Shown: positions 20,618 to 56,831 of the stretch, piece after piece
Position numbering within the stretch: position 1 is the first letter of the stretch
Layout of the letters: every line of letters begins with the position of its first letter
Source of the DNA: a virus
Lineage: Duplodnaviria > Caudoviricetes
IMG/VR virus record: IMGVR_UViG_3300027969_000040
Length of the DNA stretch: 64,000 nucleotides
Strand: one strand, 5' to 3'
Notes under the pieces: generated by a model
The model's database searches: none
Told to the model about the DNA's origin: nothing
The model's input: only the letters and a program-made list of their open reading frames with translations
Made by a program: the position numbers and the translations under genes

Positions 20618-20674
20618 AACTCAGTCCTTTGATATATCATCATGTACTTTATTTATGCGTAGTTAATTAACTCT

Positions 20675-33670: not shown

Positions 33671-36331
33671 TTATTCGAACGTGAATAATTGATCAAATGT
33701 AGTTTTTGTTCCGGTATTGTCTCTAATGTCCCAATCCAGAACTCCTAATAAGTTATCAACCTTTTGGTCAACAATAGTTGCTTCCATTAGGTCGTTATCA
33801 AATGGTAAGTCTTTAAACCATTGTGGTATGTGAGTTTCGTCAGTTGGATAGCCAACAGATGTAAATCCTAATGGATTTGCTTTTAGTTTACAAACAATAG
33901 TTTTCATTCCGTCGATTATGCTCATACTGCGATTGTCGCTATTCATACGCCTCAACGAATTCCAATTGATTGCTGCACGAACATGCCCTGGCATATTAGA
34001 TCTACCTTTACGTTCTTCAAGTTCGGCAAACTTAGTTAAGTTGTTTACACGTTTAGGTGTACCTTTCTCCCAGGCTGGCCGCTCTTGAAAACTCAATTTA
34101 AAAGTTAACACACGTTGGTAGATTTCTTTCTTCTCGGCACCTGTTAGTACTGCTAATAATAGTTCACTTAAAAAGTCTTGTACAACCTTAGGAGTATCAC
34201 TACGCTTTAAGTCCAACCCCATTGCCTTTACCTTGCCTAACTTACCATTGACATTCTGTTTGTTTCCTTCAAGGTCGACAATAAGAACTGCATAGCGTTT
34301 CTTTTTAATAAACAACCCTTTACTAGCTACTAGCTCTCGGCCGCCAACAATAATACTGCCCATTTCTCTTGGACAATGGAATGCTCTTTCCATGAACCCC
34401 GGGAAACTGGTATTAACTTGATTGGCGATGTTATCGTACAGCTCGATGCACATTTCTTCAGTCCACTTCATATTACCAGCAGCAACGTCATCCTTGATAA
34501 CTGGCCACGCTGAGAAATAAACTGAGTCTGTGTCACCGTAAATAATAGAGTCACCTGTATGATCGTACTTGCCTGTTATGCATTCATTGGTATGTGCATC
34601 CATATGTCTAGCAATAACACGCCCAGTTAAGGTGGTCGATTGGCCAATTCGCTTATCAAAAAACCTACAGCCAGGATTAAGAATAGCACCGTACAAGCTG
34701 TTGAGATTAATCTTTTTAACCAGCTGACGTTTGTCCCAGAATGCTTTATCTTCATTTGTTTTAGCTTCCTTCTTCTTAGCCTGAAGTTCTTTACGCTCTG
34801 CATACCAACGTTCCAGTAATCCGGGCACAATACCTTTAGCATCGTACTTAAAGATAGTACCATTGGCACTAAGTATCCAAGGTTGATTGCCTTCGAATAC
34901 TAAACGCCAAACATCAGCGGCAGACATAGTATCATTACCGCCGCCCTCCCAGTCAATGGTTATGTCTGTGCCAGGCTCCATATTCATTACACTGGTATAT
35001 TCTAAGCTACCAAACAAGTTTTCCCAGGCGTCTGCAAAACTTGAACCTGCATCCATCTTTTCTTTTATGTATTGATCGGTCCTTGTTTGTCTGAGCTGTC
35101 CGACAATAGTCTCACATGCCATGTTGAGGGCACGAATAGCCGAGGGATAGAGCGAGTTGATGTCGATTGCTCCAATCCATTCGTGCATACCCTTTTTGGG
35201 GTAAGCAACGTAGGCACCTGCTGCTTGCGTTTCACCTTGTTCATCTTGATTACTCCTATTTTGAACTATTAAACCTTGACGATGTGCTTCATTAATAATG
35301 GCTTGTTCGGTAACAGCCACAGCCCCCATAGTAGTAGGAAGCAATACAGTATTGTCGTGTGCCAATTCGTTGGCAAGATCAATAAAGCGAAGTTTCTTAT
35401 CCAACTTGGCCAACAACATGGTGTCTTGCCTGTTGTAGTCAATAAATTTAGGAAAATCTTTATTGTATAATTGATCCAATGTACCTTCGTACTGGAGTTT
35501 GCGTTCTTCAAGTTCGTACTCGCCGATAGCATCTAAGCTGTAGCTATGACGTTCTTCATATGTGTATTTGCGATACAGTTGCATATAGTCCATATGCACA
35601 CGACCAATCAAGTCGAATGTGATGTTTTCAGCACCAAAACGTTCAAAGGTTCTCTTTTTAGGAAATTGATTCCATAAGCAATAACGACGGGTATCGTCTT
35701 TGCTGAGTACTTTGATAGTACGCATTACCATATACGGAACGTCAAAGCCCTCTGAGTTCCACCCGCTTAGTATGTCTGCATCCTCAATGAGGTCAAGGAA
35801 TGTTTTAATCATATCATCTTCGCGAGCAAAGATAAAACAATTATCAAACTGACTGGCTACTTCTTGTGCAGTATCCCAGCTATAGCTTTTTGGTGGTACT
35901 GCTAGTGTAATCAATTTATCAAGCCAAGACAAGTAAACTGAAATTGCAGTAATGGGATTAAATGGATCTTCGGGTCTGCTGTACCCGCGCACAGGATCAA
36001 AGTCCACCTCAATATCAAAAAAGCAAATGTTCAAATTAGGTGCATCCTTACCTAAATAGTTTTCTTCTAAACATCTTACCAATGGTTTAATGTCAGATTC
36101 CCACAGTTTATTTTTTGGATGTATTTTAATTTCTTTATAGAACTCTTTGCCGTTACGAGTACTAAACCTGCTGACAGGCGTACCGTATATGGTTGTAAAT
36201 TTACCTCTAGGGTCGTCGTAGTAGAATAGATAGTTAGCAGGATATTCTTGATATACCCTGCGACCTTCTACTCGTTCTACTACATGAATCCTGTCGTTCT
36301 CTTTATCAAAAAGTGCGTCAACATAACTCAT
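33671..36331 (-). CDS. polB: Family B DNA polymerase with 3'-5' exonuclease
   Basis: FDIE, SGWNSEGFD, YNRQD exonuclease motifs; DINSLYPS, KINLNSLYG, YGDTDS and KKRY polymerase motifs. Confidence 0.97.
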   Translation of the reverse strand: MSYVDALFDKENDRIHVVERVEGRRVYQEYPANYLFYYDDPRGKFTTIYGTPVSRFSTRNGKEFYKEIKIHPKNKLWESDIKPLVRCLEENYLGKDAPNLNICFFDIEVDFDPVRGYSRPEDPFNPITAISVYLSWLDKLITLAVPPKSYSWDTAQEVASQFDNCFIFAREDDMIKTFLDLIEDADILSGWNSEGFDVPYMVMRTIKVLSKDDTRRYCLWNQFPKKRTFERFGAENITFDLIGRVHMDYMQLYRKYTYEERHSYSLDAIGEYELEERKLQYEGTLDQLYNKDFPKFIDYNRQDTMLLAKLDKKLRFIDLANELAHDNTVLLPTTMGAVAVTEQAIINEAHRQGLIVQNRSNQDEQGETQAAGAYVAYPKKGMHEWIGAIDINSLYPSAIRALNMACETIVGQLRQTRTDQYIKEKMDAGSSFADAWENLFGSLEYTSVMNMEPGTDITIDWEGGGNDTMSAADVWRLVFEGNQPWILSANGTIFKYDAKGIVPGLLERWYAERKELQAKKKEAKTNEDKAFWDKRQLVKKINLNSLYGAILNPGCRFFDKRIGQSTTLTGRVIARHMDAHTNECITGKYDHTGDSIIYGDTDSVYFSAWPVIKDDVAAGNMKWTEEMCIELYDNIANQVNTSFPGFMERAFHCPREMGSIIVGGRELVASKGLFIKKKRYAVLIVDLEGNKQNVNGKLGKVKAMGLDLKRSDTPKVVQDFLSELLLAVLTGAEKKEIYQRVLTFKLSFQERPAWEKGTPKRVNNLTKFAELEERKGRSNMPGHVRAAINWNSLRRMNSDNRSMSIIDGMKTIVCKLKANPLGFTSVGYPTDETHIPQWFKDLPFDNDLMEATIVDQKVDNLLGVLDWDIRDNTGTKTTFDQLFTFE

Positions 36332-37053: not shown

Positions 37054-37449
37054 TTAACCGTTAATGTAATTTGGATATGCTTTATTAAACTTACGCATAA
37101 TAATGCCAGCTACGCTATTAGCTTCGTTTTCTTCATTGCTACCAGTTTCGCCACTGTTAGCATTGAGTTGATTTTCTTGATGTTGTTTAAAATGAACAAG
37201 TTCGTGTGCCAGTGTTCTACAAATATCAATTGGATGTCTGCGATCTATACCCAAACTAATGGTCATATCTGATGGGGAAAAACTACCAAATGTAGGCTGC
37301 TCTTGTTGATTCATTGATTTGAAAATGTTAATTTCGGGTAAGTTAGTTAGTCCTAGTTCTTCCATGGCCAATGGAAGTAAATCCTTTATTGCACTGTATA
37401 CAACTTGGTAGGATTCCTTTGATTCAACTAGGAATTCAACAGCTCTCAT
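37054..37449 (-). CDS. Zincin-like metallopeptidase domain protein, probably virion core
   Basis: MRAVEFLVE start; RTLAHELVHFKQ (HExxH) with downstream ENEAN third ligand. Confidence 0.7.
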   Translation of the reverse strand: MRAVEFLVESKESYQVVYSAIKDLLPLAMEELGLTNLPEINIFKSMNQQEQPTFGSFSPSDMTISLGIDRRHPIDICRTLAHELVHFKQHQENQLNANSGETGSNEENEANSVAGIIMRKFNKAYPNYING

Positions 37450-40400
37450 TATTCTTGATCTCGCCAACGTTTCTCTGCAGAGTCCCAATATCTTCCACCA
37501 ACTACATTTTTGGTTTCTGTTTTAGATTCTTCATATGGTTGCTCTTGTGTATCAGGCTCATTGGTAGCCGGTACAACTTGATCGTAGTCTTTCATGGTCA
37601 GAGTATTACCATTACTACTTAGATTTACTAGTTTTTCTGCCACATCGTGCAAATCTAAGTCAGTTTTTGCATCTTCTCTAGCAAATTCCATTACACGCAA
37701 TAGCATAGGAACATCCATGGTGACAGTATCAGTTGGGTTAGATGATGCTTCTTCGTCTAAGTTTATTAATTTTAGATAGTGGCGCTGTAGATATTCTTTA
37801 GCCCATTTTGCATCATCAAATAATGGACCAACACGTACACCTGAATGATTTAACACTTCAAATCTTTCGCCCTTGCTACCGTCCGGTCTCATGATATTAA
37901 CTTTACGTACACGCGGTCTGCCAGATTTAATTTCTTCGCCCTCAGGAATCATACCATTGCGGGCACTGTCTTCTAATTCTAAGTATGCAGCCTTGGCTTT
38001 TTGATAGTTGGTCTCGTCACCAATTTTATCGTAATGTTGCATCAGGTCGTGCAGTCGATCTGCTTCTTTAATATAATCGCGCATGCTCATTTTAGCAGGT
38101 TCGGCAGATTCGTTTTTATCTTGCCACCAGTAATTACCGTTAACAGGTTTTGATTTAGGCAACGATGGTGTTTTATTCAACATACGGCTACGTGCAGCTA
38201 GCGCCATTTTTTTTAATGTTTCTGGATCTTTGCCACTTAGATTAGGATGAGTGGAAGACTGGAAACGTTTAATCCATGTGTCTGGGGAATCGTTTGCAGT
38301 TAGTTTACCTTCGTCTATTTGTTGTGCTAGTATGCGTTCGACTTGTTTAATCCAGCTATTTAAATTATTCGATTCAATACCTTGTGCATTGTTTCCAACC
38401 ATGCCTGCAACAGAATTAATAGCATCACTTACACGATCAGACCCATATTTTAGTAAATCTGGTCGTTTTTCTGTAATGCCCTTAACAATGGCACTTATAA
38501 CAGAACTATTCGATACGCCCTCCGCCACACCTTGCTCTTTAACCAAACGTAATGCTGTAGCAGGTAGATTGTTGGCTTGCCCGCCATCGTCTAGGTCAAT
38601 GTAATAGGTTTTTGGGGCACCTTTAAAGGCACCGTGCTTAATTTCTCTAATCCAACCGGTCTTACCAGCGTGTTCGCCTTTGACAACTTTTACCTTCTTG
38701 GCTAGCCCCTTGCCTTCCGCCACACCTTGCTTGTCAATACTTCCCCGTATACCGCATTTAGCACAATGATATTGTGTTAGCGTTGGGTGTTCTTTTTTCT
38801 TTACAGGACCATGGCAATGTGGGCAGGTACCTGTGGCCATTGCCTTGACTTCTTTACTCATATCTTCTTCGGAGCCTTCCGCCACACCTTCATTAGGTTT
38901 ACAGTTGCGAACCTGGCCGCCATTCTTACCTTTCTTAGTACCTACTGCATGTTTGCCTGGCCAGCAACGAGTAAATCCGTTGCTATCTTTGGCACCTTTC
39001 TTAATCTCATTCAAGTTGCCGTGTGTTTGACACATGCCGCAGTCTTCACACACCATTTCCATCTCTACTGATTCGTTGTGTTTTTTCTTGCCAGCACAAT
39101 GTGCTCGTTGGCTGAACCCTTTGGGGTGACTACAGTTGATACTGTTCTTGTATTTTTGGCTCCACTCCTCTGCCACACCTTGTGCCGGTGCTTGAGGTTT
39201 AGATTGATTTTTTTGTACCCATTGCATTACTTGAGTTTTTAGTTGTAATGGAACTGTATCTTGTTTACCGTTTACAAAATCTACTACATCTATAGTTCTG
39301 TTACCAAATGGGCCTTCGCCAGCGGAGTTAGTGCCTACAATACCTTGTGCATTTTGTCCAGCCGTACCTAAGTCTGGATCAGACCCTTTTGCTAAAAATT
39401 TATCAAGTCCTAATGTACTAGCAGTATTAGGTGGCACCCAAGACATTGATGTAAAAGTTACATTGTCGTATGCTGTATGCCCGCCCAATCCTTCACTTCC
39501 TCTATAATCTGCTTTAATATAATTACCGTCGGCCATTTTGAAATAAACTGTGCGAGGTGCAAACATATCTAATTCATTCAATTGATCCTTTGCTACACTG
39601 TGCTCGCCGGTACCTATATAGTGATGGTCGTGTACTTTATAACCTTTTTTGCGATAGTGAGCAATGGCAGATTTAATTGCCTTATCACGATTGTCGCTAG
39701 TTACCTTCACAGTTTTTTGTATAGTTTCTTTACGTTTGCTAACCATTGCGTGATTAGGGTCTGTAACAGTTAAACTAATACGATGTACAGATTTTGTGCT
39801 TTCGTCAACTTGATCTCCGTTGCCAACTAATCTAATTAGATGCCCTTGTTTAAAATATGTTGGGTGATACATTACTACATTAAAGGTACTATCGTTGTTA
39901 TAGGAAATCTTTACATCACCTCCAGCAGCAACAATCTTACTTTTTATATCTTTTGTTGCTTGTGCATTTTTATTGGGCCCATACATAGCATTAGCCATTT
40001 GGTCTGCTAATTGTAATAGATATTGTTTCTCGTCTCCGCCACCTTCATCTGGTGCAAACTCTTTTAATTTTCTTTGAGCATCAATTTGTGCCAATTGCTT
40101 TCTAGCAGACTGATCTCCGGAGTGGGCGCGATCTATTAGCTTTGCCATGTCAGCTTTTAATTTGGCTATTTTATTATCGATTGAATTAATATTACCTTTG
40201 ACAACGTCATCTGGTACTGCGACTTTTGCACTGCCTGGGAAGTCTCTAAATTCGCCTTCGTTCATTACTCTGCTACTTAAATCGTTAATTTGAATTTCAA
40301 GATTTGCAATTTGTTTTTGATCTTTAACTTTAACTGGATATGGTTTTCCATTCCACTCAAACTGTTGCGCACCTTGTTTAGCGGCTGCAAGATGTGCTTT

Positions 40401-41159
40401 TGCAAAAGCCAATGCTTCCTCTGTTGTACCAAATACTTTACTGGCTAGCCATTTAAGAGTTTTGTAAGTTATTACTCCACCTAATACTGCCATTGCTCCT
40501 GTCAGCAATCCTGCACCTAGTGCCGGAGCAAATAAAGCAATACCCCCGCCAGAGCTTGCCATAGTAACACCAGCAGTGGAACCAGTTAATCCTGCCCCTA
40601 CACCAACCCCTAATGCTTTGTTTAACTCGGTGTCGTGCATAAACGAATCTGCATTTCTGAGTTTATTTCCTAGTTCACTTCCCGGAAATAATGCTTCGTT
40701 TACTTCAGACTCGTTCTTAACAAGTCCCATATCTTCAAGGTACTCAACTGCCTTTAATAAATTGGGTGTTGTTTTTTCTGTAGTCTTACCGTTATGTGTA
40801 ATTCTTAATACATTTGTATCGCCGTCGGTACTGATAGTAGCAGTAACTTCTGAATTATCTGGATCTATGTAACTTAATATTTCTTTAAATTTATCTTCTA
40901 TAGTTTCTTTTTCTTTTTTATCAGCGTAAGTTCCGTTTTTACCTCTGATTAAATTGTGTACTTTGCCTTCTTTGTCGGTTCTGGTCATTGCGGCAGGTTT
41001 AAGGAATGCAGCATCGTATGCAACAGCCGTTCCGAATTTCTTTTCCAATGTGGAAAGGTCGTATGCTTTTGCTTCTTTGTCTTCGGTTTGAATTGTTTTA
41101 TTTTTAATCTGACCTAAAAATTCACGATCGTCATCGCTGAACATATCTAATACATACAT
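37449..41159 (-). CDS. Large modular internal head protein / polyprotein (1236 aa)
   Basis: Mosaic of short modules separated by recurring (V/L/I)-x-E sites (VNE, MNE, LKE, LNE, four GVAE); contains Cys-rich, Zn-ribbon and KOW-like modules. Confidence 0.6.
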   Translation of the reverse strand: MYVLDMFSDDDREFLGQIKNKTIQTEDKEAKAYDLSTLEKKFGTAVAYDAAFLKPAAMTRTDKEGKVHNLIRGKNGTYADKKEKETIEDKFKEILSYIDPDNSEVTATISTDGDTNVLRITHNGKTTEKTTPNLLKAVEYLEDMGLVKNESEVNEALFPGSELGNKLRNADSFMHDTELNKALGVGVGAGLTGSTAGVTMASSGGGIALFAPALGAGLLTGAMAVLGGVITYKTLKWLASKVFGTTEEALAFAKAHLAAAKQGAQQFEWNGKPYPVKVKDQKQIANLEIQINDLSSRVMNEGEFRDFPGSAKVAVPDDVVKGNINSIDNKIAKLKADMAKLIDRAHSGDQSARKQLAQIDAQRKLKEFAPDEGGGDEKQYLLQLADQMANAMYGPNKNAQATKDIKSKIVAAGGDVKISYNNDSTFNVVMYHPTYFKQGHLIRLVGNGDQVDESTKSVHRISLTVTDPNHAMVSKRKETIQKTVKVTSDNRDKAIKSAIAHYRKKGYKVHDHHYIGTGEHSVAKDQLNELDMFAPRTVYFKMADGNYIKADYRGSEGLGGHTAYDNVTFTSMSWVPPNTASTLGLDKFLAKGSDPDLGTAGQNAQGIVGTNSAGEGPFGNRTIDVVDFVNGKQDTVPLQLKTQVMQWVQKNQSKPQAPAQGVAEEWSQKYKNSINCSHPKGFSQRAHCAGKKKHNESVEMEMVCEDCGMCQTHGNLNEIKKGAKDSNGFTRCWPGKHAVGTKKGKNGGQVRNCKPNEGVAEGSEEDMSKEVKAMATGTCPHCHGPVKKKEHPTLTQYHCAKCGIRGSIDKQGVAEGKGLAKKVKVVKGEHAGKTGWIREIKHGAFKGAPKTYYIDLDDGGQANNLPATALRLVKEQGVAEGVSNSSVISAIVKGITEKRPDLLKYGSDRVSDAINSVAGMVGNNAQGIESNNLNSWIKQVERILAQQIDEGKLTANDSPDTWIKRFQSSTHPNLSGKDPETLKKMALAARSRMLNKTPSLPKSKPVNGNYWWQDKNESAEPAKMSMRDYIKEADRLHDLMQHYDKIGDETNYQKAKAAYLELEDSARNGMIPEGEEIKSGRPRVRKVNIMRPDGSKGERFEVLNHSGVRVGPLFDDAKWAKEYLQRHYLKLINLDEEASSNPTDTVTMDVPMLLRVMEFAREDAKTDLDLHDVAEKLVNLSSNGNTLTMKDYDQVVPATNEPDTQEQPYEESKTETKNVVGGRYWDSAEKRWRDQE
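38521..39181 (-). repeat. Four dispersed copies of about 15-bp AAGGTGTGGC[GA]GA encoding [QE]GVAE[GE]
   Basis: Copies near 38521, 38713, 38876 and 39168, with unrelated spacers. Confidence 0.85.
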
Positions 41160-41160
41160 A

Positions 41161-41700
41161 TTAACCTCCCTGCCCTGACATATTTTGTTTTACTGTGTTT
41201 GTAAGTGTCCCCAATTGGCTTGACGATAAGCCAGCATTGGCTAACATCTGTGCCATTGCTGCTAATCCTTGTGGATTAATTGGCGGTGTTGGTTTTGGTG
41301 TTTGCCCCGGCGTAGAACCAACTGTTGTTGTTTTTGGTGCAGTGTTGGCCGCAGTAGTAGGCGGTGTAGTCTGACCAGCAGATGTAGTTGGTGCAGCTTG
41401 CCCTGCAGATGCAGACGGTGTAGTTTGAGCTTGCCCTGCAGATTGCCCTACAGTTCCGACTACACCTACTTCGTTTATACTTCTTACATATTTTTGGTCT
41501 TTAAAATATTCAACCAATGAATCAACACTATCGTGATAATCGATTCCTGATTCAAGCAAATCATTTACAGATTGTTTAATGAAATGTCTTTCATTCTCAG
41601 TTATACCGCCGTATACATTTTTATCTTCAACGATATCGTTTACACGTACCAGGCCTTCTACAATCCTGTTTAATAGTGTTGATGAAATAGAGTCAATCAT
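41161..41700 (-). CDS. Hypothetical internal head protein with Ala/Thr/Pro-rich tail
   Basis: 179 aa; IVE, ITE and INE sites; low-complexity C-terminal half. Confidence 0.55.
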   Translation of the reverse strand: MIDSISSTLLNRIVEGLVRVNDIVEDKNVYGGITENERHFIKQSVNDLLESGIDYHDSVDSLVEYFKDQKYVRSINEVGVVGTVGQSAGQAQTTPSASAGQAAPTTSAGQTTPPTTAANTAPKTTTVGSTPGQTPKPTPPINPQGLAAMAQMLANAGLSSSQLGTLTNTVKQNMSGQGG

Positions 41701-42659
41701 TTGCTGGTCCTTGACTTGGGACGGCCACCAAACAATTCACCTGCTTGTTGTCCACCCATATTAGTTGCCATACCACCACTTGAACTAGCACCTGCCGTTG
41801 ATTCAAATTCTGCATCTGGCGCATCTACATCGCCTATTTTACTAGAGTTCATTGTGATGCCTTTATATTTAATTTTTAGATTAGAATACATGTTACCACG
41901 TTGTCTTAAAAAATTACTTAACCATTTGTCGGCCTGTATAATAACTTGTTTTGGTGCGCCTCCCCAATTATATTTTTCTATCATTGGTGTTAGATCAAAT
42001 TCCTTATACTCACCACCCATTAGCATAGATGCCATTAATTTATTTGGATCGGTCTGATCGGCTGCTTTTGCTAACCCAGGTGCTGCTGCTACTGCTGCGG
42101 CTGCACCAGCGCGCCCAAGGAATCCTCTACGGTTCATATCAGCTTCCGTCACACTTTGCTGACCTAATACAGGACCAACTTGAATACCTTTGCTTGCTAG
42201 TAAATCTTTAATACGACCGGCTCTGTTACTAGCGGCTTCATACTCTTGCTGTGTTTTGGCATTTTTTACAGCCATGACTGCTTGTTGGTATTGTTGTTTC
42301 CACTCATTAGCACCGGGTGTTTTGATAGAGGAGCCGTCTGGATAATCGCCTTCCTCTACAATGCCAAGAGTATTCATGTTCTCGTCGGCAACTTTGTTCT
42401 CCATATGAGAACCTAATTCGTATTCTAACCATTCTTTTACATTACGTAAGTAATCATTCGCCAAAGTTATCTTTTCGCTTGCCCACCCCGGTATACCATC
42501 TTCCTCGCTGATTTTTTTAAGCATTCTATGCAGTTCCATGGCATTTGATGCAGAATGATAACATTCTTCTCTGGCCATTTGTACTTCGTGGTCCATATGC
42601 ATAGACTCAGCTGCTTGGACAATTGGGTGTTTTTCGGGTATAAAATCTATAGGTTTCAT
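41697..42659 (-). CDS. Modular internal head protein containing an internal Tat signal peptide
   Basis: DHEVQMA...WASEKITLANDYL module; VTE-AD-MNRRGFLGRAGAAAAVAAAPGLAKA; upstream TAAATA at 42682-42687. Confidence 0.65.
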   Translation of the reverse strand: MKPIDFIPEKHPIVQAAESMHMDHEVQMAREECYHSASNAMELHRMLKKISEEDGIPGWASEKITLANDYLRNVKEWLEYELGSHMENKVADENMNTLGIVEEGDYPDGSSIKTPGANEWKQQYQQAVMAVKNAKTQQEYEAASNRAGRIKDLLASKGIQVGPVLGQQSVTEADMNRRGFLGRAGAAAAVAAAPGLAKAADQTDPNKLMASMLMGGEYKEFDLTPMIEKYNWGGAPKQVIIQADKWLSNFLRQRGNMYSNLKIKYKGITMNSSKIGDVDAPDAEFESTAGASSSGGMATNMGGQQAGELFGGRPKSRTSK

Positions 42660-42696
42660 AGTAGTAAATTGGTTAGTAATGTATTTATGTTACAGT

Positions 42697-44295
42697 TTAA
42701 TACGCACTGTTGGACTTGATGATAACTTGATCAATGGGTAAACTAGCCACTGAGTTATTAAGGCTAGTCCAGGACTCGATTCCTGTATTCTTATTAGGGG
42801 TAAACAATACTTTATCGTTTTTAACTTCACCAGTAGCTATTCCTACTGGTTTACCTTTCCACCAAACAACATCGCCGCTTTTAACACGCTCTGCTTTATT
42901 CAAAAATTGGTCTGGTGGTGTAATGCCTTCTGTTACTTTATTTTCTAACTTATTAAAGAATATTACAATTGCTTGTTTTACATCTTCGGCAGCATATAAT
43001 CTATCATTAGTGATAGCCAATCGTTTAGAAAACAGATCTCCGTCTTCTTTACTTTTAGCATATTCCTTTGCTGCAAGACTAGAAAAATGTGCTCGCGCTG
43101 CATATAGTCTACGTAATTCCATCCATTCTTCTTCGTCTGGCGTGGGTCTTGGATCGTGTTGCAGCAAAGACAATCGCTTCATTCTTTCTGCATATTTTAC
43201 CAACTCCACAGCTACTTTTTCTGCAAGGTGACCTTCGTATGGTTTTTCTTGTATAGGGGTATAGTCATTGACATCGTCCCAATTTGGATCTACAAGATCG
43301 CCTTCGGGATCGAGCTCGGAGCGTGACAAGTATTGAACAAGTTTTTTTGCTAGATTGCTGTTGGTATCAGACATTTTTAAAAAGGCAAGGCGTCCTGCAT
43401 TCAGCCCCCTTTCTGCAAATAATCGTGCTAACTCTACTAATTCCCTAGTATCTTTTTCAACTTCAGGATCTGACTCGGGGTCTAAGAACGTTCTTGTAAA
43501 TTTTATAATTTCGCTGGCATATTTATAAGGTCTGTAGTCTGTTACACGTTGTTTAAAATCTTCTTCTAAGTTAGTTGCAGCGTCAACAACTGGGTCATAT
43601 GGTATTTTATTAAAAATATGTACCAACTCAGGGGTTGCTTGCCCGTATAATTGTGTTAAGAATTCTTTACTGGCATTTTCATCTTCCCGCACCATATTCC
43701 ATAACATCCTGCATTCAGTGCCATGGCTAGCATCGTATGTCTTTCCATTGATATTAACCTGTGCTGGTTTTTCTGCTACAACTATTACATAGCTATGTTT
43801 GTCTGCGGTAGTTGATTCTGCAATGGATTTAAATGTTAAGAATGGTTTAAGATCACCAACATTTTTACCAGGCGGTATTCTGGACTTCCTGGGTGACCCG
43901 TCTTTTTTCGGTTTGGGTGTAAATTGTGTATAGACACTATCAACTTCTAGTCGTTGTTTATCTGGTTCGCCTACAGCAAAAATGGCTATTGTTTTACTAG
44001 GATCAAATCCTAATATTCTTGCATAATCTTGAATTTCGTAAGGTTGATTGGCTTCAACAATACGATCGTTATGTACACCTGCGGCATGCATTAGCTGTAC
44101 TTTATCAGTAAAGCTAAATGGACTTTTAGGTAGATCTACATTATTACTAGTACCAATGAATACATTATCACGACCAAATTTTCTTTGCAGTTCGTTAAAA
44201 ACCGCACTATGCCCTTTATGAAACGGCTGGAACCTTCCTGGGTAAATAACCACAATGTGGGTTGCTTGGGATTCAAAAAGGTCAAATACAAACAT
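42697..44295 (-). CDS. Cytidylyltransferase-like (HxGH) nucleotidyltransferase with C-terminal extension
   Basis: YPGRFQPFHKGH, PFSFTDK, SHGTECR; MFVFDLFE leader; upstream TAAATA at 44313-44318. Confidence 0.8.
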   Translation of the reverse strand: MFVFDLFESQATHIVVIYPGRFQPFHKGHSAVFNELQRKFGRDNVFIGTSNNVDLPKSPFSFTDKVQLMHAAGVHNDRIVEANQPYEIQDYARILGFDPSKTIAIFAVGEPDKQRLEVDSVYTQFTPKPKKDGSPRKSRIPPGKNVGDLKPFLTFKSIAESTTADKHSYVIVVAEKPAQVNINGKTYDASHGTECRMLWNMVREDENASKEFLTQLYGQATPELVHIFNKIPYDPVVDAATNLEEDFKQRVTDYRPYKYASEIIKFTRTFLDPESDPEVEKDTRELVELARLFAERGLNAGRLAFLKMSDTNSNLAKKLVQYLSRSELDPEGDLVDPNWDDVNDYTPIQEKPYEGHLAEKVAVELVKYAERMKRLSLLQHDPRPTPDEEEWMELRRLYAARAHFSSLAAKEYAKSKEDGDLFSKRLAITNDRLYAAEDVKQAIVIFFNKLENKVTEGITPPDQFLNKAERVKSGDVVWWKGKPVGIATGEVKNDKVLFTPNKNTGIESWTSLNNSVASLPIDQVIIKSNSAY

Positions 44296-44347
44296 AAAAA
44301 TTCCTTATCTAATATTTATGGTCATTGATAAGAATCGTTGAATCAAA

Positions 44348-44378
44348 AAAAAAGACTGAAATAATTTCAGTCTTTTTT
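44348..44378. terminator. Intrinsic terminator
   Basis: AAAAAAGACTGAAA-TAA-TTTCAGTCTTTTTT perfect inverted repeat. Confidence 0.85.
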
Positions 44379-45256: not shown

Positions 45257-45982
45257 CTATTGATTTTTCTGATTGATTATAGTTTGATTTACTGACCCAA
45301 TTAAGGATGGTGATAACATTTTGAGTATATCTAACATCTTAATATCATTAAGATATATGAAGCCGCCTTGAAAATATTTATATCTATCCGATAGCCTCTC
45401 CAATATAAACTTTGATATTTTTATCTCTCCATCTAAATTTTTTATATAATTTACTAGTGCATGTCGATCCTCAAGTTTGATGAAACCTTCTTTTAAGCGT
45501 ACCTTATACGGATGATCACTTTCTTTTTTAGTGATAATAAAACCTTGATCTAACAATTTTTTGTCCGAATCAAATTCTAACAACGAAACCGAACTCAATC
45601 TAGTTTTATGCTCGCTTAAAATTTCATTAGCTACATTATACAAGTAAGATTCTGAATCTGCAAATACAGTGAAAGAATAATAACTAATTCTAAATTTTAC
45701 TTTAACATTGGTTGGTGTTGTATAATATTTGTAAAAGTCTTCTAGTGTTTTTAAACTTGCATTTTGATTTTTGTATCTGACAAATCTGTCTGTGTTTCTA
45801 TAATTAAAAGCCTTCACAGTTGATGGTAGTTTATCAGCAGTTTTACAATTAATCAAACATCTTGCACCTTGTAAATTATAAGTTAAACTGTAACAAAACT
45901 CGTTAAAAAATTTCTTCTTAGTATAAAGAAATCGCAAGTCTCGATTTAGTTTACTCCACTCTGATAAATCCATTTTTGTCAA
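45257..45982 (-). CDS. Hypothetical protein
   Basis: 241 aa ORF overlapping the clpA end. Confidence 0.55.
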   Translation of the reverse strand: MTKMDLSEWSKLNRDLRFLYTKKKFFNEFCYSLTYNLQGARCLINCKTADKLPSTVKAFNYRNTDRFVRYKNQNASLKTLEDFYKYYTTPTNVKVKFRISYYSFTVFADSESYLYNVANEILSEHKTRLSSVSLLEFDSDKKLLDQGFIITKKESDHPYKVRLKEGFIKLEDRHALVNYIKNLDGEIKISKFILERLSDRYKYFQGGFIYLNDIKMLDILKMLSPSLIGSVNQTIINQKNQ

Positions 45983-48254
45983 CTGATGGTACCCCTTCGA
46001 TCAATAGCTGCATGTTATAGGCAATTACAGTAAAAGTCAAATCTTTTTCCTGGCAATCTACATTAATAATAGATCCGTTTTCCAAATTCTCAAACAATAT
46101 TTTTTTACTAATAGGTACTTTAATCAAATCGTTAATTACACGATTCAATGGCCTTGCGCCCATTCTCTTATCAAACCCTTTTTCAACTAGTAAGTCAACG
46201 GCACGTTCAGTTAGACGCAATTTAATTTGTCTATCGGATAGTAAATCATTGATTTCTGACATAAATTTAGCGACAATCTTTTTCATGCTAAACTGATCTA
46301 ATGTTTTAAACTTACATATAGCATCAAGTCTATTTCGAAACTCGGGTTTAAAAAATTCCTTAACTGCCTTATCGTCCTCACCTGTGCGCTCTAACGATTG
46401 ACCAAATCCAATGGTATTGCGTTCGTTATCGGCAGCGCCTAGATTACTAGTCATAATTAAAATAGAGTTACGTGCATCGGCTTTTTTACCATTGCTACCA
46501 GTAATAAATCCTTCATCCATAAATTGCAACAAGATATTTGTTACATCAGGATGAGCTTTTTCAATCTCATCTAATAGGATAATTGAGTTTGGATTTTGTT
46601 CTAAAGCACTAATTAATAATCCACTGCCAGCTGCTGAATCTTCATATCCAACATACCCAGGAGGTGCACCGATTAACTTAGCCATGCTATGTTTTTCTTG
46701 GTACTCACTCATATCGTAGCGAACCATCTTCATTGACAAATTGGTTGCAAGTAACTTAGCTAATTCAGTTTTTCCAGTACCAGTTGGCCCCAAGAATAAA
46801 AAGCTACCAATTGGTTTGTTAATTGATTTAATACCTGCTTTACTTACGAATATTCGCTCTAACACAGAAGTTACGGCATCCTCTTGACCGTACAGCCCTT
46901 GGTTTATATTGATTTCTAAATTAACAAGGCTATTAGTATTATCACTGCCAATTTGATCAACTGGTATCTTAGTAGCGCGACTTAGTGCTTCTACAATCTG
47001 CGATTTGCCTAATACAAAGTCTGAATCTTGCTTGATTTGTATTTTTTGTTTAGCACATGCAGTATCCATTAAGTCTATTGCTTTGTCTGGCAGCTTTTTG
47101 TCAGGTTGATATCTAATGCTATAATCAACGGCGGCATCAATTGATTCATCTGAAATTTTAATGTTATGGAATTTTTCAAAATTTAATCTTATACCTTTAA
47201 GTATAAGTTTCGAATCACTTGCACTAGGTTCGTCTACAGTTAATCGTTGAAATCTACGCATCAATGCTCGATCTTTTTCGAAGCTTTGTACATATTCATC
47301 CCATGTAGTAGATGCGATAACTTTAATCTTGCCCTTAGTTAATGCAGGTTTAATCATGTTACTAAAGTCGACCGAGCTAGAAGAGCCACCGCCAGCGCCA
47401 CGCATCTGATGTGCCTCGTCGATGAATAGTATAGTTTTTTCTTTCATTATCAATGCTTTGATAACATTCTGAAATTTTTCTTCAAACTCGCCTCTATACT
47501 TACTTCCAGCTAATAAGCTACCTATATCTAAGTTATACACAGTATATGACTTTAGATATTCTGGTACATTACCGTCTACTATATTTTTAGCAAGTCCTTC
47601 TGCTAACATTGTTTTACCAACGCCCGGATCACCAACTAATAGGATATTGGCTTTATTACGTTTAGCCAATATATGAGACATTTCTGTTAGTTCAAACTCT
47701 CGTCCAATAATAGGATCAAGTTCACCTTTCTTGGCCAAGTTGTTCAGATTTGTACAAAACTCATCTAACATTTCTTCGGCACGCTCTGCATTTATATTTG
47801 GAGAATTTAAATCCGACTCGGTATTAAATTTTTTGTATAATTCCATTAGGGTTGCACGATCAATTCCGTACTTTAACATAAAATAGAATGCATAGCTATT
47901 TGATTCCATTGAAATGCTTAATACCAAGTCAATGATTTTAATACGGTTAGATCCGTGAAACAACACTTGTGTTAGTGCTCTATTAAATACACGTTCTAAC
48001 GTTTGTGTTTTTCTTGGAGTATGCGATTCTTCGACTACTAAATGTGTTTGTGCATTTAAATAATGGCTTAGTTCACCCACCAGGCCGTTGACATCAAAAT
48101 TTAATTTTATCAATATCTTCTTAAAAGGACTATATTGAAAAATAGCCAATGCTAGATGTTCTAAAGTTACATATTCATGTTTAAGCGACTTAGCAGCCTC
48201 GCTGGCTTTAAGTATAATTTCTTCAATCTCTGCATTTGGTCTCATTGACGACAT
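45951..48254 (-). CDS. clpA: ATP-dependent Clp protease ATP-binding subunit (ClpA-like)
   Basis: N-domain HEYVTLEH, two AAA modules (GDPGVGKT/LFIDEAH and GPTGTGKT/LLDEIEK), PEFRNRLD, MGARPL; no ClpB M-domain. Confidence 0.9.
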   Translation of the reverse strand: MSSMRPNAEIEEIILKASEAAKSLKHEYVTLEHLALAIFQYSPFKKILIKLNFDVNGLVGELSHYLNAQTHLVVEESHTPRKTQTLERVFNRALTQVLFHGSNRIKIIDLVLSISMESNSYAFYFMLKYGIDRATLMELYKKFNTESDLNSPNINAERAEEMLDEFCTNLNNLAKKGELDPIIGREFELTEMSHILAKRNKANILLVGDPGVGKTMLAEGLAKNIVDGNVPEYLKSYTVYNLDIGSLLAGSKYRGEFEEKFQNVIKALIMKEKTILFIDEAHQMRGAGGGSSSSVDFSNMIKPALTKGKIKVIASTTWDEYVQSFEKDRALMRRFQRLTVDEPSASDSKLILKGIRLNFEKFHNIKISDESIDAAVDYSIRYQPDKKLPDKAIDLMDTACAKQKIQIKQDSDFVLGKSQIVEALSRATKIPVDQIGSDNTNSLVNLEININQGLYGQEDAVTSVLERIFVSKAGIKSINKPIGSFLFLGPTGTGKTELAKLLATNLSMKMVRYDMSEYQEKHSMAKLIGAPPGYVGYEDSAAGSGLLISALEQNPNSIILLDEIEKAHPDVTNILLQFMDEGFITGSNGKKADARNSILIMTSNLGAADNERNTIGFGQSLERTGEDDKAVKEFFKPEFRNRLDAICKFKTLDQFSMKKIVAKFMSEINDLLSDRQIKLRLTERAVDLLVEKGFDKRMGARPLNRVINDLIKVPISKKILFENLENGSIINVDCQEKDLTFTVIAYNMQLLIEGVPSVDKNGFIRVE

Positions 48255-48264
48255 TACAGTTCCT

Positions 48265-49101
48265 TTATGTTAATAAATTTTCTAATGCTTTATGCTGATC
48301 CGATGTAATAGTCGACGGAACAGTTAGTGAAATTTCAACATGCAGATCGCCACGTATAGGTTGATTTACATCCCATAACCCTTGAGATGGAATTCTAAAT
48401 TTAGAATTATTTTGTGTACCCGGCGGGATTCTAATTTCAAATTGTGTATGATCTAACCCTGACACCATTGCCTTTGTTCCTACTACAGCATCGATGCAAT
48501 TAACACTTATTGTTTTTATTAGATTCAACCCGGCTATTACAAATTCAGGATGCTGTCTTATTCGTAAATCAACTAGTAAGTCTCCAGGCGGCAAGTTAGA
48601 ATGTGAAGTATCACCTTTTCCTTGGTATCTAATTTGCATACCAGTTTGAACTCCCCTGGGGATTTCAATCTCTACAGTTTTATTTGATCCATTTGAATTT
48701 CGGACATTAATATGATGCGATTGAGTGTTAAGTGTTGATTCTAAATCTAGTTCAATTCCTACCCTTAGGTCTGCATTTTTAGCAGGTTGCCCGTGATGTC
48801 TGAAATTAAATCCTCCTGCAAATTGCCGGAATAGATCATCAATACCACCACCGCCACCACCAAAACTAAAGTGATGAAAATTACCACCGCCACCACCTTG
48901 CCCAAACATTTTTTGTTGTTCCCATTGGGCACGTTTTTGTGGATCGGATAGTGTTGAGTATGCTTCCTGTATCTCTTGGAATTTATTTTGATCACCACCC
49001 CGGTCTGGATGATGCTGCATAGCCAACTTTTTATACGCTTTCTTAATCTCGTCATCGCTCGCGTTAGCGTTGACACCTAAAATATTAAAATAATCAGTCA
49101 T
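48265..49101 (-). CDS. DnaJ/CbpA-like co-chaperone (no Zn finger)
   Basis: J domain with HPD, G/F-rich linker, C-terminal DnaJ domain (GDL, IPPGTQ). Confidence 0.9.
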   Translation of the reverse strand: MTDYFNILGVNANASDDEIKKAYKKLAMQHHPDRGGDQNKFQEIQEAYSTLSDPQKRAQWEQQKMFGQGGGGGNFHHFSFGGGGGGIDDLFRQFAGGFNFRHHGQPAKNADLRVGIELDLESTLNTQSHHINVRNSNGSNKTVEIEIPRGVQTGMQIRYQGKGDTSHSNLPPGDLLVDLRIRQHPEFVIAGLNLIKTISVNCIDAVVGTKAMVSGLDHTQFEIRIPPGTQNNSKFRIPSQGLWDVNQPIRGDLHVEISLTVPSTITSDQHKALENLLT

Positions 49102-50051: not shown

Positions 50052-50096
50052 AATTGAAATCTCCTAGTGTAAATATTTACCATAAATACTAATAAT

Positions 50097-55272: not shown

Positions 55273-55449
55273 ATCCGCCCTTGTTTAAATTATTTATTAC
55301 TTTTTCAAGTATACTATATTTACCAAACTGTGCAGGCTTGAGCTAGTGTTTGAGTACAGCTTAATACTTAGTCCTAATAAAAAAATGTAATCTACTAGTA
55401 AAACCCGCAGGCAGATAGCCTTAAATATTTTTGTGCGCAGGAGGCACAG

Positions 55450-56249: not shown

Positions 56250-56276
56250 AAATAAATGGGCCTAGCCCATTTATTT
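56250..56276. terminator. Bidirectional terminator between convergent phoH and HNH-like gene
   Basis: AAATAAATGGGC-CTA-GCCCATTTATTT perfect inverted repeat. Confidence 0.85.
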
Positions 56277-56831
56277 TATGTTCAAGTGTTTAAAATACTC
56301 GTAATGTTTTTCTAACGTCCATGTCGTTGGATCTATAGCGGTCCCATCATGTGTTTGATACTTTGCATCAAACACATTGGTATAACGTTCAAACGGCAAC
56401 CACATGTTAGGAGTCTTACTAGACCAACCTGCATCTTTGAGCATTGCATGTTTAGCACGACTTAATCTTACTGTGGGCGCATTTAATGCTTGCTCGATGG
56501 TGATTGCACTAGCCAGCAGCAAATCACGAATACGACTTGCTGGTATCAGGTGTTCAAAGTCGCACTCGTCGTCGGCGTCAACTTCATGATAATGTGCTTT
56601 CATGCCGTCCCGTTGTTCAATGCAGTATTCATGATATCTACGTAGGTAGTATTCAATGTCTTTACGAATTTCTTGTAGCCATTGCTGGTCATTTTTAACA
56701 GACTGATATTCAATTAACAATTTTTCAATTTGTATTAAACATCGTTTAGCAAGTGTCCTATAGGTATCGGGGCTACGTTTAGTTTTACCATACACTGGTG
56801 CCGTAAAAGCCTCGAGCAAATCTTTAATCAT
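56271..56831 (-). CDS. Putative HNH-like nuclease
   Basis: DFEHLIP motif resembling the DUF1524/HNH His-Me finger. Confidence 0.4.
   Translation of the reverse strand: MIKDLLEAFTAPVYGKTKRSPDTYRTLAKRCLIQIEKLLIEYQSVKNDQQWLQEIRKDIEYYLRRYHEYCIEQRDGMKAHYHEVDADDECDFEHLIPASRIRDLLLASAITIEQALNAPTVRLSRAKHAMLKDAGWSSKTPNMWLPFERYTNVFDAKYQTHDGTAIDPTTWTLEKHYEYFKHLNIK

What the first reader, a model, noticed from the sequence alone, without database searches (positions are those of the whole stretch)
37449..44295. Cluster of polyprotein-like internal head proteins: cassettes separated by Glu protease sites
Seen: the 1236-aa ORF is a chain of unrelated 30-120 aa modules delimited by VNE, MNE, LKE, VDE, LNE, four GVAE, IDE and LDE. 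The GVAE delimiters are near-identical DNA repeats. Neighbours begin with similar leaders (MYVLDMF, MFVFDLFE, MRAVEFLVE) and have TAAATA promoters. Inference: a packaging-leader plus protease-released payload system delivering many small effectors on injection, with the repeats acting as recombination points for cassette exchange.
Basis: partly seen in the sequence, partly recalled or inferred. Interest (0 to 1): 0.7.

Follow-up and report, generated by a model that had tools for sequence, protein, structure and literature searches.

The report
Phage cargo polyproteins with fixed linkers
A giant uncultured lake phage related to T4 has five adjacent genes that start with T4-style "load me into the head" tags; the largest strings about a dozen swappable small proteins together with a short linker that looks like a head-protease cut site and that is also the DNA joint where related phages exchange modules.

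Summary
The 1236-aa ORF (37449-41159, minus strand) is a chain of about 12 unrelated modules.

**Shown here**
- Four copies of the QGVAE|G linker are encoded by a near-identical 18-20 nt repeat that uses rare codons.
- Each module recurs alone, at varying positions, in hundreds of metagenomic phage proteins.
- Homology blocks end at hydrophobic-x-Glu sites.
- Near-identical relatives differ by whole cassettes swapped exactly at the linkers. One cassette has moved between two genes of the cluster.
- AlphaFold gives compact modules, with low confidence exactly at the linkers.
- A contig 96% identical to the window carries a T4 gp21-type head protease.

**Inferred, not measured**
- Short relatives put a 9-residue leader resembling the T4 capsid-targeting tag exactly where the polyproteins have the linker.
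- Eleven mid-protein Tat export signals were found; nine sit 2-4 residues after such a site.
- So cutting after Glu is likely. Head packaging and injection are plausible.

**Novelty**
It is a new variant of the T4 internal-protein system. I found no paper describing it. This scan has noted the same linker system in at least ten other genomes.

The parts
44348..44378 (-). Terminator-like hairpin with a T-run just upstream of the cluster; it closes the preceding gene
44313..44320 (-). CATAAATA, a T4-late-promoter-like motif 23 nt upstream of the ATG of the 532-aa gene
   Evidence: a consensus match only
42697..44295 (-). Gene 1 (532 aa, P0004). Leader MFVFDLFE, then an NMNAT-like cytidylyl/adenylyltransferase domain (Pfam match aa 17-110; homology block aa 1-232), then further modules
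42682..42689 (-). Second CATAAATA motif, 29 nt upstream of the ATG of the 320-aa gene
41697..42659 (-). Gene 2 (320 aa, P0003). Leader MKPIDFIPE, one mobile cassette, an internal Tat signal, and a C-terminal domain of unknown function
42141..42350 (-). 70-aa mobile cassette (P0003 aa 104-173) between IVEE| and QSVTE|. It is absent from the ortholog in L001 and present inside the polyproteins P0007 and P0006 between GVAE linkers
42063..42137 (-). Internal twin-arginine (Tat) signal (P0003 aa 175-199); its RR lies 4 residues after the SVTE site
41161..41700 (-). Gene 3 (179 aa, P0002). Possible leader ending IVE15 and a Thr/Pro/Gln-rich low-complexity middle. It has no relatives among the proteins retrieved with P0001, and its start overlaps the stop of gene 2
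37449..41159 (-). Gene 4 (1236 aa, P0001): the polyprotein of about 12 modules. Its start overlaps the stop of gene 3
40257..40694 (-). Module aa 156-301 with a Gly/Ala-rich hydrophobic stretch (aa ~185-235, Kyte-Doolittle >1.4). It recurs in at least 15 other cluster representatives at varying positions
39573..39800 (-). Module aa 454-529: basic (pI 9.9), compact beta-beta-alpha-beta fold. It is the most widespread module of the N-terminal half and also occurs in cultured cyanophage BUCT-ZZ01
39168..39572 (-). Module aa 530-664, shared at about 80% identity with otherwise unrelated proteins P0010 and P0012
39165..39184 (-). Linker repeat 1 (QGVAE|E, aa 660-665)
38877..39167 (-). Module aa 665-761: Cys-rich (7 Cys), basic. 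It is the most widely shared module, found in about 95 of the 120 listed long relatives and in most of the 1143 shorter ones; its first part also occurs in T4-like cyanophages
38874..38893 (-). Linker repeat 2 (EGVAE|G, aa 757-762)
38715..38876 (-). Module aa 762-815: helix plus CPxC...CxxC zinc-ribbon. It is present twice in P0011, one copy 92% identical
38712..38731 (-). Linker repeat 3 (QGVAE|G, aa 811-816)
38520..38714 (-). Module aa 816-880: KOW/SH3-like beta-barrel, pLDDT 83-95
38517..38536 (-). Linker repeat 4 (QGVAE|G, aa 876-881). The IMG/VR contig and two Logan contigs end here
37452..38519 (-). C-terminal modules aa 881-950, 951-1136 and 1137-1236. These are conserved in close relatives; aa 881-948 is missing in P0008, and aa 1146-1196 matches an uncultured 735-kb phage
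37054..37449 (-). Gene 5 (131 aa, P0005). Leader MRAVEFLVE, then an HExxH zincin-like module. The same module lies inside polyproteins of other phages, directly after a KLAE site

Best explanation
This is a T4-type internal-protein (head cargo) system, elaborated into polyproteins.

**Shown**
- Five co-oriented genes (44295 down to 37054) form one unit. Two late-promoter-like motifs precede it, and three of the four gene junctions overlap stop and start.
- The genes encode proteins made of independent small modules.
- In the 1236-aa protein the modules are joined at hydrophobic-x-Glu sites. Four of these are the standard linker QGVAE|G.
- The linker's 18 nt are conserved at silent positions, and they are the exact joints at which related phages gain, lose, replace and relocate cassettes in frame.

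**Inferred**
1. The N-terminal leaders act like the T4 capsid targeting sequence and bring the proteins into the scaffolding core of the prohead.
2. The phage's gp21-type (Peptidase_S77) prohead protease then cuts after Glu, both at the leader end and at the linkers.
3. This frees 54-186-aa pieces, many of them basic, together with enzymes such as the NMNAT-like domain and the HExxH module.
4. The pieces stay in the head and enter the next host with the DNA.
5. Pieces that begin with a Tat signal would then be exported to the periplasm.

**My odds**
- Modularity and exchange at the linkers: about 0.95.
- Cutting after Glu: about 0.75.
- Head packaging and injection: about 0.6.
For: **(1) Mosaic structure**
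- 129 long and 1143 shorter relatives were found, from capped candidate lists. Most share only 4-22% of the protein, at 40-95% identity.
- 477 cluster representatives match the N-terminal half, in discrete blocks (aa 151-300, 354-456, 450-525, 518-660) that lie at any position in the hit.

**(2) Where homology ends**
- On P0001, block ends pile up at aa 301, 453, 520-529, 664, 761, 815, 880 and 950.
- Of 1425 unique boundaries in 120 proteins, 40.7% lie within 4 aa of [LIVM]xE against 16.3% for random positions. Control motifs ([LIVM]x D/K/Q/N/S and [DNKQ]xE) give ratios of only 0.6-1.1.

**(3) Cassette exchange seen directly**
- P0006 and P0007 are 98% identical to P0001 in the first 524 aa and also align in the C-terminal part, but carry different cassettes between the linkers.
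- In DNA, window 38537-39592 is replaced and 42140-42350 is deleted in L001.
- That 70-aa cassette sits in gene 2 here, but inside the polyprotein in P0007, and at a different place in P0006.
- One Logan contig joins both flanks around 436 nt of other sequence, and contigs from three metagenomes end at the repeats.

**(4) Linker DNA**
At 32 sites in five loci the codons are GGT 31, GTG 30 and GCG 30. GTG is only 11% of Val codons and GCG only 4% of Ala codons in this phage's genes.

**(5) Leader and linker are equivalent**
- Short relatives start MRANEFITE, MKSSEFITE or MKINEVITE immediately before the same module start (WSQKYK) that follows QGVAE in P0001.
- T4 IPII and IPIII start MKTYQEFIAE.
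- T4-like cyanophage S-SM2 SSM2_108 starts MKTLKQFLKE and ends in the same module.
- A strict leader pattern fits 148 of 371 family proteins against 1 of 76 other ORFs of the window.
- T4 work shows that the first 10 residues suffice for head targeting, with processing determined at residues 8 and 10 (PMC9026906; PMC3012670).

**(6) Fission and fusion at the sites**
The modules of genes 1, 4 and 5 are fused in P0115, with GVAE or KLAE before each.

**(7) Internal Tat signals**
Eleven lie at residues 177-879 of their proteins. Nine have a hydrophobic-x-Glu site ending 2-4 residues before the RR. This makes sense only if the site is cut.

**(8) Protease**
- A contig 95.8% identical in DNA to the window has the full head set: portal, acidic core protein, Peptidase_S77 (E 3e-25), scaffold and Gp23-type capsid protein.
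- S77 is found in 6 of 11 module-bearing viral contigs of 85 kb or more, and in 3 of the 3 that are at least 90% complete.

**(9) Structure**
In aa 655-885, the stretch aa 724-877 folds as three compact units (pLDDT 75-95), while aa 655-721, the first part of the Cys-rich module, is low. Confidence falls below 50 exactly at aa 760-763, 813-817 and 878-883; pTM is 0.35. Module 455-514 is compact with loose flanks.
Against: - No proteomic or biochemical datum exists for any member; cutting, packaging and injection are all inferred.
- The window itself does not contain the protease. It is seen on a 96%-identical relative's contig, about 35 kb beyond the window's start.
- The cluster lies among replication and chaperone genes (DnaJ, ClpB, PolB), about 70 kb from the head genes.
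- P0001's own leader lacks the terminal Glu.
- P0001 has 20 [LIVM]xE sites, and only about half coincide with module borders, so the motif alone does not define cuts.
- The late-promoter motif is a 7-8-nt consensus match.
- No module of P0001 has a known function.
- The first 67 residues of the Cys-rich module fold with low confidence.
Confidence: 0.6

Rival explanations
1. The polyproteins are cut, but in the cytoplasm of the infected cell, and the products are not head cargo. The arrangement would be a way to make many small proteins from one message, as RNA viruses do. The protease could be the S77 enzyme acting outside the prohead, a host enzyme, or another phage enzyme. The products, including those exported by Tat, would act in the producing cell, for example in superinfection exclusion or host takeover.
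For: - The cluster lies among replication and chaperone genes, far from the head module.
- Tat signals need a working cytoplasm and translocon, which the producing cell offers.
- Nothing shows the proteins are in virions.
Against: - The leaders match the T4 capsid-targeting tag in length and pattern, and recur on 40% of family members. A signal of that kind has no role if nothing is packaged.
- gp21-type proteases are activated inside the prohead (PMC9026906).
- T4's own ip genes also lie away from its head genes.
Confidence: 0.2
2. The proteins are never cut. They are multidomain 'polyvalent' proteins, and QGVAEG is only a flexible spacer and recombination joint.
For: - Polyvalent proteins of phages are often delivered whole, the N4 virion RNA polymerase being one example (PMC5512222).
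- The linkers are predicted to be disordered, as any spacer would be.
Against: - Tat signals inside proteins, placed 2-4 residues after the sites, would be useless.
- A start codon plus a cleavable leader replaces the linker in short relatives.
- Genes split and fuse exactly at the sites.
- Boundaries favour Glu over Asp, Gln and Lys.
- A spacer need not keep Val-Ala-Glu.
Confidence: 0.1
3. The cutting enzyme is the small HExxH zincin-like module itself. It is gene 5 here and is embedded in polyproteins elsewhere. This would match the embedded metallopeptidases proposed for polyvalent proteins.
For: - Gene 5 is translationally coupled to the polyprotein.
- The module recurs inside polyproteins.
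- A homolog lies within the 11-23 kb fetched around the polyprotein gene in L001, L002/L003, L004 and L005; L006 gives only a 20-residue match.
- Iyer et al. propose self-release by embedded peptidases (PMC5512222).
Against: - Cutting after Glu with a hydrophobic residue three positions before is the known rule of the gp21/S77 family, not of zincins (PMC9026906).
- The module carries a leader and a cut site of its own, like any other cargo.
- Its Pfam matches are weak and below the curated cut-off (best: Peptidase_M78, E 7e-4, 19.8 bits against 22).
Confidence: 0.05

Closest known systems
T4 and T-even internal proteins IPI, IPII, IPIII and Alt: a capsid targeting sequence removed by prohead protease gp21 (PMC3012670, PMC9026906)
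   Same: - A short N-terminal leader of the same pattern (MKTYQEFIAE in T4; MRAVEFLVE, MFVFDLFE and MRANEFITE here), ending in hydrophobic-x-Glu.
- A gp21-type protease and a T4-type head gene set in the same phage lineage.
- Highly variable, often basic cargo behind a conserved leader.
- Genes that lie away from the head genes.
   Different: - Here many cargo units are chained in one ORF of up to about 12 modules, joined by a standard internal linker (QGVAE|G). T4 IPs are single units cut once.
- The linker's DNA is itself conserved and serves as the exchange joint.
- There is no sequence similarity to the T4 IPs.
- Nothing has been measured.
Polyvalent proteins of phages and conjugative elements (Iyer, Burroughs, Anand, de Souza, Aravind 2017, PMC5512222)
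   Same: - Large phage proteins combining many unrelated domains, thought to be delivered with the DNA and to act early.
- Extensive mosaicism.
- Relatives here carry enzymes of conflict type: a zeta-toxin-like kinase, a deaminase, a sigma-70 region 4 and an NMNAT-like domain.
   Different: - Release there is proposed to come from embedded peptidase domains. Here it would come from the head protease acting at a standard linker.
- Modules here are mostly very small (50-150 aa).
- None of the hallmark polyvalent domains was found in P0001.
Processed inner-body and ejection proteins of giant phages phiKZ, 201phi2-1 and SPN3US (PMC9026906, PMC5694885, PMC10052503)
   Same: A gp21-related protease cuts many head proteins after Glu at a short motif, often at several sites per protein, and the products are ejected into the host.
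   Different: - Those cuts mainly remove propeptides from dedicated structural or ejection proteins.
- No standard repeated linker, no cassette arrays and no DNA-level conservation of the site have been reported there.
- This phage belongs to another lineage: its DNA polymerase is closest to Sinorhizobium phage Phosso, Agrobacterium phage Atu_ph07 and the large Erwinia/Serratia phages such as Serratia phage BF.
Recombination at conserved motifs in T-even tail-fibre adhesins (gp37/gp38). This rests on my own recall of Tetart et al. 1998, which I did not check here
   Same: Short conserved sequence motifs inside a coding region act as in-frame joints for swapping variable segments between phages.
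   Different: Those motifs are structural parts of one protein, not cut sites between independent proteins, and the swapped segments are variants of one domain rather than unrelated modules.

Membership tests
T4-type internal proteins (capsid-targeted, gp21-processed head cargo) | N-terminal leader of about 8-10 residues with the capsid-targeting pattern, ending in hydrophobic-x-Glu | tested here: met
   Genes 1, 2 and 5 start MFVFDLFE, MKPIDFIPE and MRAVEFLVE, and T4 IPII/IPIII start MKTYQEFIAE. A strict pattern fits 148 of 371 family members against 1 of 76 control ORFs. P0001's own leader (MYVLDMF...) lacks the terminal Glu.
T4-type internal proteins (capsid-targeted, gp21-processed head cargo) | The phage encodes a gp21-type (Peptidase_S77) prohead protease and T4-type head genes | tested here: met
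   Found on an IMG/VR contig 95.8% identical in DNA to the window, not in the window itself: S77 at E 3e-25 and Gp23 at E 1e-80. S77 is also present in 3 of 3 near-complete module-bearing contigs.
T4-type internal proteins (capsid-targeted, gp21-processed head cargo) | Protein present in the mature head, with the leader removed after Glu | not testable with these tools
   This needs virion mass spectrometry. No cultured member has been studied; I found no proteomics for BUCT-ZZ01.
T4-type internal proteins (capsid-targeted, gp21-processed head cargo) | Sequence similarity of the cargo to T4 IPI, IPII or IPIII | tested here: not met
   Pfam, PHROGs and NCBIfam gave no internal-protein family for any of the five proteins. 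T4-like phages themselves share only the leader, not the cargo (PMC3012670).
Polyvalent proteins (Iyer et al. 2017) | One polypeptide that combines many unrelated domains, in a phage, with mosaic architectures among relatives | tested here: met
Polyvalent proteins (Iyer et al. 2017) | Presence of the hallmark domains (MPTase, ART, and others) and release by an embedded peptidase | tested here: inconclusive
   None was found in P0001. The HExxH module of gene 5 is only weakly similar to M78-type zincins, below the curated cut-off. It is embedded in some relatives.
Twin-arginine (Tat) exported proteins (for the piece of gene 2 after aa 173) | RRxFL motif, a hydrophobic Ala/Gly-rich region and an AxA site at the N-terminus of the exported chain | tested here: inconclusive
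   The motif is present: TIGR01409 scores 16.7 bits, exactly at its cut-off, and the Pfam TAT_signal model hits relatives. However, it lies at aa 175-199 and becomes N-terminal only if the SVTE site is cut.

The most novel reading that the evidence does not exclude
The 18-nt linker would be more than passive microhomology. It would be a dedicated, dual-coded site that is both a protease cut site in the protein and a recognised recombination signal in the DNA. That would make these genes an in-frame, protein-level counterpart of an integron cassette array. Some of the released pieces would be routed by the next host's own Tat system into its periplasm after injection.
Probability: 0.12. Interest if true: 0.9.

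Novelty: new variant of a known kind. Interest (0 to 1): 0.72.

Why it matters
If the inference holds, T4-related phages of lakes and oceans carry a general 'plug-in' system for head cargo.
- Any small protein or enzyme placed between two standard linkers would be loaded, cut free and delivered with the DNA.
- Phages would trade these plug-ins in frame at the linker.

That would explain more than a thousand unannotated mosaic phage proteins. It would also point to a large reservoir of early-acting anti-host or anti-defence proteins, and it would offer a natural design for loading multiple cargos into T4-type capsids.

The Tat signals placed just after cut sites would be an unreported way for a phage to reach the periplasm. 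The claim can be tested directly in cultured cyanophages.

Tried and rejected
**Searches that found nothing**
- DNA search of the ORF against 50,697 phage records: no match.
- Pfam, PHROGs, NCBIfam and PDB sequence searches of P0001: nothing above threshold except a sub-threshold KOW motif.
- Foldseek against PDB. For aa 655-885 there were only weak KOW/SH3 hits (best E 2e-3). For aa 445-535 nothing was significant; a faint resemblance to T7 Gp2 (E 0.6) is not evidence.
- ESM Atlas feature search of the Cys-rich module: only unnamed viral clusters below the reliable score.
- Papers: no hit for GVAE with phage, for DUF6321 with phage, or for polyprotein with prohead protease that describes this system.

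**Resources not available**
- The whole genome of the window is not held.
- P0001 itself is not on record in the contig index.
- ENA records could not be searched as genomes.

**Results I do not rely on**
- TATAAATA as a full octamer is not enriched.
- A first alignment for aa 300-532 was misaligned by MAFFT on its left half and was dropped in favour of A4.
- Joints in the Logan contigs with fewer than 30 letters on one side, such as 38545 to 42348, are probably repeat-mediated and are not used as evidence. Only the contig that carries both flanks is used.
- Metatranscriptome contigs (run X23) cover parts of genes 1, 2 and 4. This is only a weak hint of transcription, because DNA carry-over cannot be excluded.
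- The random value for the G.AE row is a script artefact and is ignored.

**Not attempted**
- No complex prediction of the protease with a linker peptide was tried, since enzyme-substrate pairs are a poor use of that test.

Full report
**Setting**

The window is part of a large uncultured freshwater phage.
- Its family-B DNA polymerase (33671-36331) is closest to those of Sinorhizobium phage Phosso (51%), Agrobacterium phage Atu_ph07 (45%) and the large Erwinia/Serratia phages such as Serratia phage BF (42%).
- The runs that hold this stretch are lake and river metagenomes.
- No whole genome is held.
- The finding covers five co-oriented genes on the minus strand: 532 aa (42697-44295), 320 aa (41697-42659), 179 aa (41161-41700), 1236 aa (37449-41159) and 131 aa (37054-37449).
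- The same block, between a DnaJ/ClpB pair and the polymerase, is present in related contigs L001 and L002/L003.

**Observation check**

- The four GVAE sites are encoded by 20-nt repeats that are 75-100% identical.
- GVAE is the commonest four-letter word in 120 relatives: 265 occurrences against 3.2 expected. The wider consensus is [E/K/Q]-Q-G-V-A-E-G.
- CATAAATA lies 23 and 29 nt before the start codons of the first two genes. The other three starts overlap the preceding stops, so the five genes look like one unit behind a terminator hairpin.
- The full T4 octamer is not enriched in the window.

**The protein is a mosaic**

- A word-indexed search found 129 proteins of 679-2163 aa. Apart from three close relatives, each shares only 4-22% of P0001, at 40-95% identity. 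A further 1143 shorter proteins were found. Both candidate lists were capped.
- Coverage along P0001 is stepwise. About 95 of the 120 listed long relatives share aa 661-760, and 3-20 share each of the other parts.
- An exhaustive HMMER search with aa 1-660 found 477 cluster representatives. Their matches fall into discrete query blocks (aa 151-300, 354-456, 450-525, 518-660) located anywhere from residue 3 to residue 1108 of the hit.
- No colinear full-length homolog exists outside three close relatives.

**Borders**

- On P0001, the starts and ends of local alignments cluster at aa 301, 453, 520-529, 664, 761, 815, 880 and 950.
- Across 120 proteins, 1425 unique boundaries lie within 4 residues of [LIVM]-x-E in 40.7% of cases, against 16.3% for random positions.
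- The control motifs [LIVM]-x-D/K/Q/N/S and [DNKQ]-x-E show no enrichment, with ratios of 0.6-1.1 (first pass).

**Cassette exchange seen directly**

- P0006 and P0007 are 98% identical to P0001 over the first 524 residues and also align in the C-terminal part. Between them they carry different, and different numbers of, cassettes, each bounded by GVAE|G.
- P0008 lacks aa 368-450 and aa 881-948, with breaks at LKE/VDE and at GVAE/IDE.
- In DNA, L001 matches the window at 93-96%, except that window 38537-39592 is replaced by 1652 unrelated bases and window 42140-42350 is missing.
- The missing 70 codons are a cassette of gene 2 that sits between IVEE| and QSVTE|. L001's ortholog reads straight from IVEE into the Tat signal. 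The same cassette lies between GVAE linkers inside P0007, and at yet another place in P0006.
- Its downstream joint in gene 2 (CAA AGT GTG ACG GAA GCT) is a decayed copy of the linker.
- An IMG/VR contig 95.8% identical to the window ends exactly at repeat 4.
- Logan contigs of three independent DNA metagenomes stop at the repeats. One contig joins 38203-38534 to 39172-39526 around 436 other bases.

**The linker is conserved as DNA**

At 32 GVAE sites in the window and four other loci, including diverged phages, the codons are GGT (31), GTG (30), GCG (30) and GAA/GAG (25/7). In this phage's genes GTG makes up only 11% of Val codons and GCG only 4% of Ala codons. The peptide alone does not explain this. 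Possible explanations are:
- spread of the linker by recombination together with the cassettes;
- selection for the DNA as an exchange joint;
- less likely, a translational pause at rare codons.

**Why cutting after Glu is likely**

1. *Leader and linker are equivalent.* Short relatives consist of a 9-residue leader (MRANEFITE, MKSSEFITE, MKINEVITE) followed at once by the same module start that follows QGVAE in P0001. T4 IPII and IPIII begin MKTYQEFIAE. The T4-like cyanophage S-SM2 protein SSM2_108 begins MKTLKQFLKE and ends in the same module. In T4, the first ten residues suffice for head targeting, residues 4 and 7 matter for targeting, and residues 8 and 10 for processing (PMC9026906).
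2. *Genes split and fuse at the sites.* The NMNAT-like domain of gene 1, the Cys-rich module of gene 4 and the HExxH module of gene 5 are one polypeptide in P0115, each preceded by GVAE or KLAE.
3. *Internal Tat signals.* Eleven distinct twin-arginine signals lie at residues 177-879 of their proteins. In nine, a hydrophobic-x-Glu site ends 2-4 residues before the RR. Pfam and TIGRFAM models recognise them.
4. *The protease.* The 96%-identical contig has, in order, a portal, an acidic core protein, Peptidase_S77, a scaffold and a Gp23-type capsid protein. S77 is present in 6 of 11 module-bearing viral contigs of at least 85 kb, and in all 3 that are at least 90% complete.
5. *Structure.* In the model of aa 655-885, the stretch aa 724-877 forms three compact units: a beta-hairpin, a helix plus zinc ribbon, and a KOW/SH3-like barrel. 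Residues 655-721, the first part of the Cys-rich module, stay at low confidence. pLDDT falls below 50 exactly at aa 760-763, 813-817 and 878-883, and pTM is low at 0.35, so the units have no fixed mutual arrangement. Residues 455-514 form a compact beta-beta-alpha-beta unit with loose flanks.

**What is not shown**

- No member has been seen in a virion or seen cut.
- The protease is not in the window.
- The cluster lies with replication and chaperone genes, though the T4 ip genes are also remote from T4's head genes.
- P0001's leader belongs to a second class (M-x-h-x-D-h-F/Y, no Glu) that recurs in relatives and may target without being removed.
- Only about half of the 20 [LIVM]-x-E sites in P0001 coincide with borders.
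- Functions are unknown. The predicted pieces are 54-186 aa, and seven of the twelve are basic (pI 7.9-9.9).
- Relatives carry a zeta-toxin-like kinase, a deaminase, sigma-70 region 4, DUF6321, DUF5872 and zinc ribbons.

**Comparison with what is known**

- The nearest known system is the T4 internal proteins and Alt: a capsid targeting sequence plus gp21 processing.
- It also fits the broad notion of polyvalent proteins (PMC5512222), and the Glu-specific multi-site processing known from phiKZ-type phages (PMC9026906).
- Three features look new: chaining many cargo units in one ORF, a standard internal linker, and conservation of that linker's DNA as the in-frame exchange joint.
- Seven paper searches found no description of it.
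- Within this scan, the same linker system has been noted in at least ten other genomes, with the same reading. I treat that as agreement, not as independent proof.

**Verdict**

This is a new variant of a known kind, with interest 0.72.

Noticed in passing
window 42063-42137 (P0003 aa 175-199): A twin-arginine export signal lies in the middle of the 320-aa protein, right after an SVTE site. Ten further internal Tat signals, most with the same spacing, occur in relatives. The domain behind it (aa 200-320) has no known family.
   Followed up: partly
window 45951-49101: A phage-encoded ClpB-like double AAA+ ATPase (767 aa) and a DnaJ (278 aa) lie just upstream of the cargo cluster. They keep that position in L001 and L002/L003. 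A link to folding or unfolding of the cargo is possible but untested.
   Followed up: partly
window 56271-56831 (minus strand): A 186-aa ORF starts MIKDLLE, another leader-like N-terminus outside the cluster. It has no Pfam family.
   Followed up: partly
window 55291-55297, 20650-20656 and 50082-50088: ATAAATA also lies 15-39 nt upstream of three other gene starts (55272 and 20617 on the minus strand, 50097 on the plus strand). This could be the local form of the T4-type late promoter.
   Followed up: no
L010 7697-8674 (minus strand; contig of the 96%-identical relative): The acidic 325-aa protein between the portal and the protease contains MNQFEKLIEYIINE near its N-terminus and SVVAE near its C-terminus. 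These resemble the leader and the cut site, and the protein may be a prohead core protein.
   Followed up: no
window 38517-39184: Public assemblies break at the linker repeats: the IMG/VR contig ends at 38529, and Logan contigs end at 38529, 38712-38731, 38890 and 39164-39175. These genes are therefore likely to be fragmented or chimeric in many metagenome assemblies.
   Followed up: yes
L012 943-2781 (Synechococcus phage BUCT-ZZ01, ON615601.1): A cultured freshwater T4-like cyanophage encodes a 612-aa protein built from several of the same small modules separated by x-x-Glu sites. It offers a laboratory handle for testing the system.
   Followed up: partly
L002 5286-6884: In a diverged relative, the 532-aa first gene of the cluster joins the NMNAT-like domain to a segment whose His-Asp motif resembles the HD domain of ppGpp hydrolases, judged by eye and not tested, then a GVAE linker and a further small C-terminal module.
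   Followed up: no
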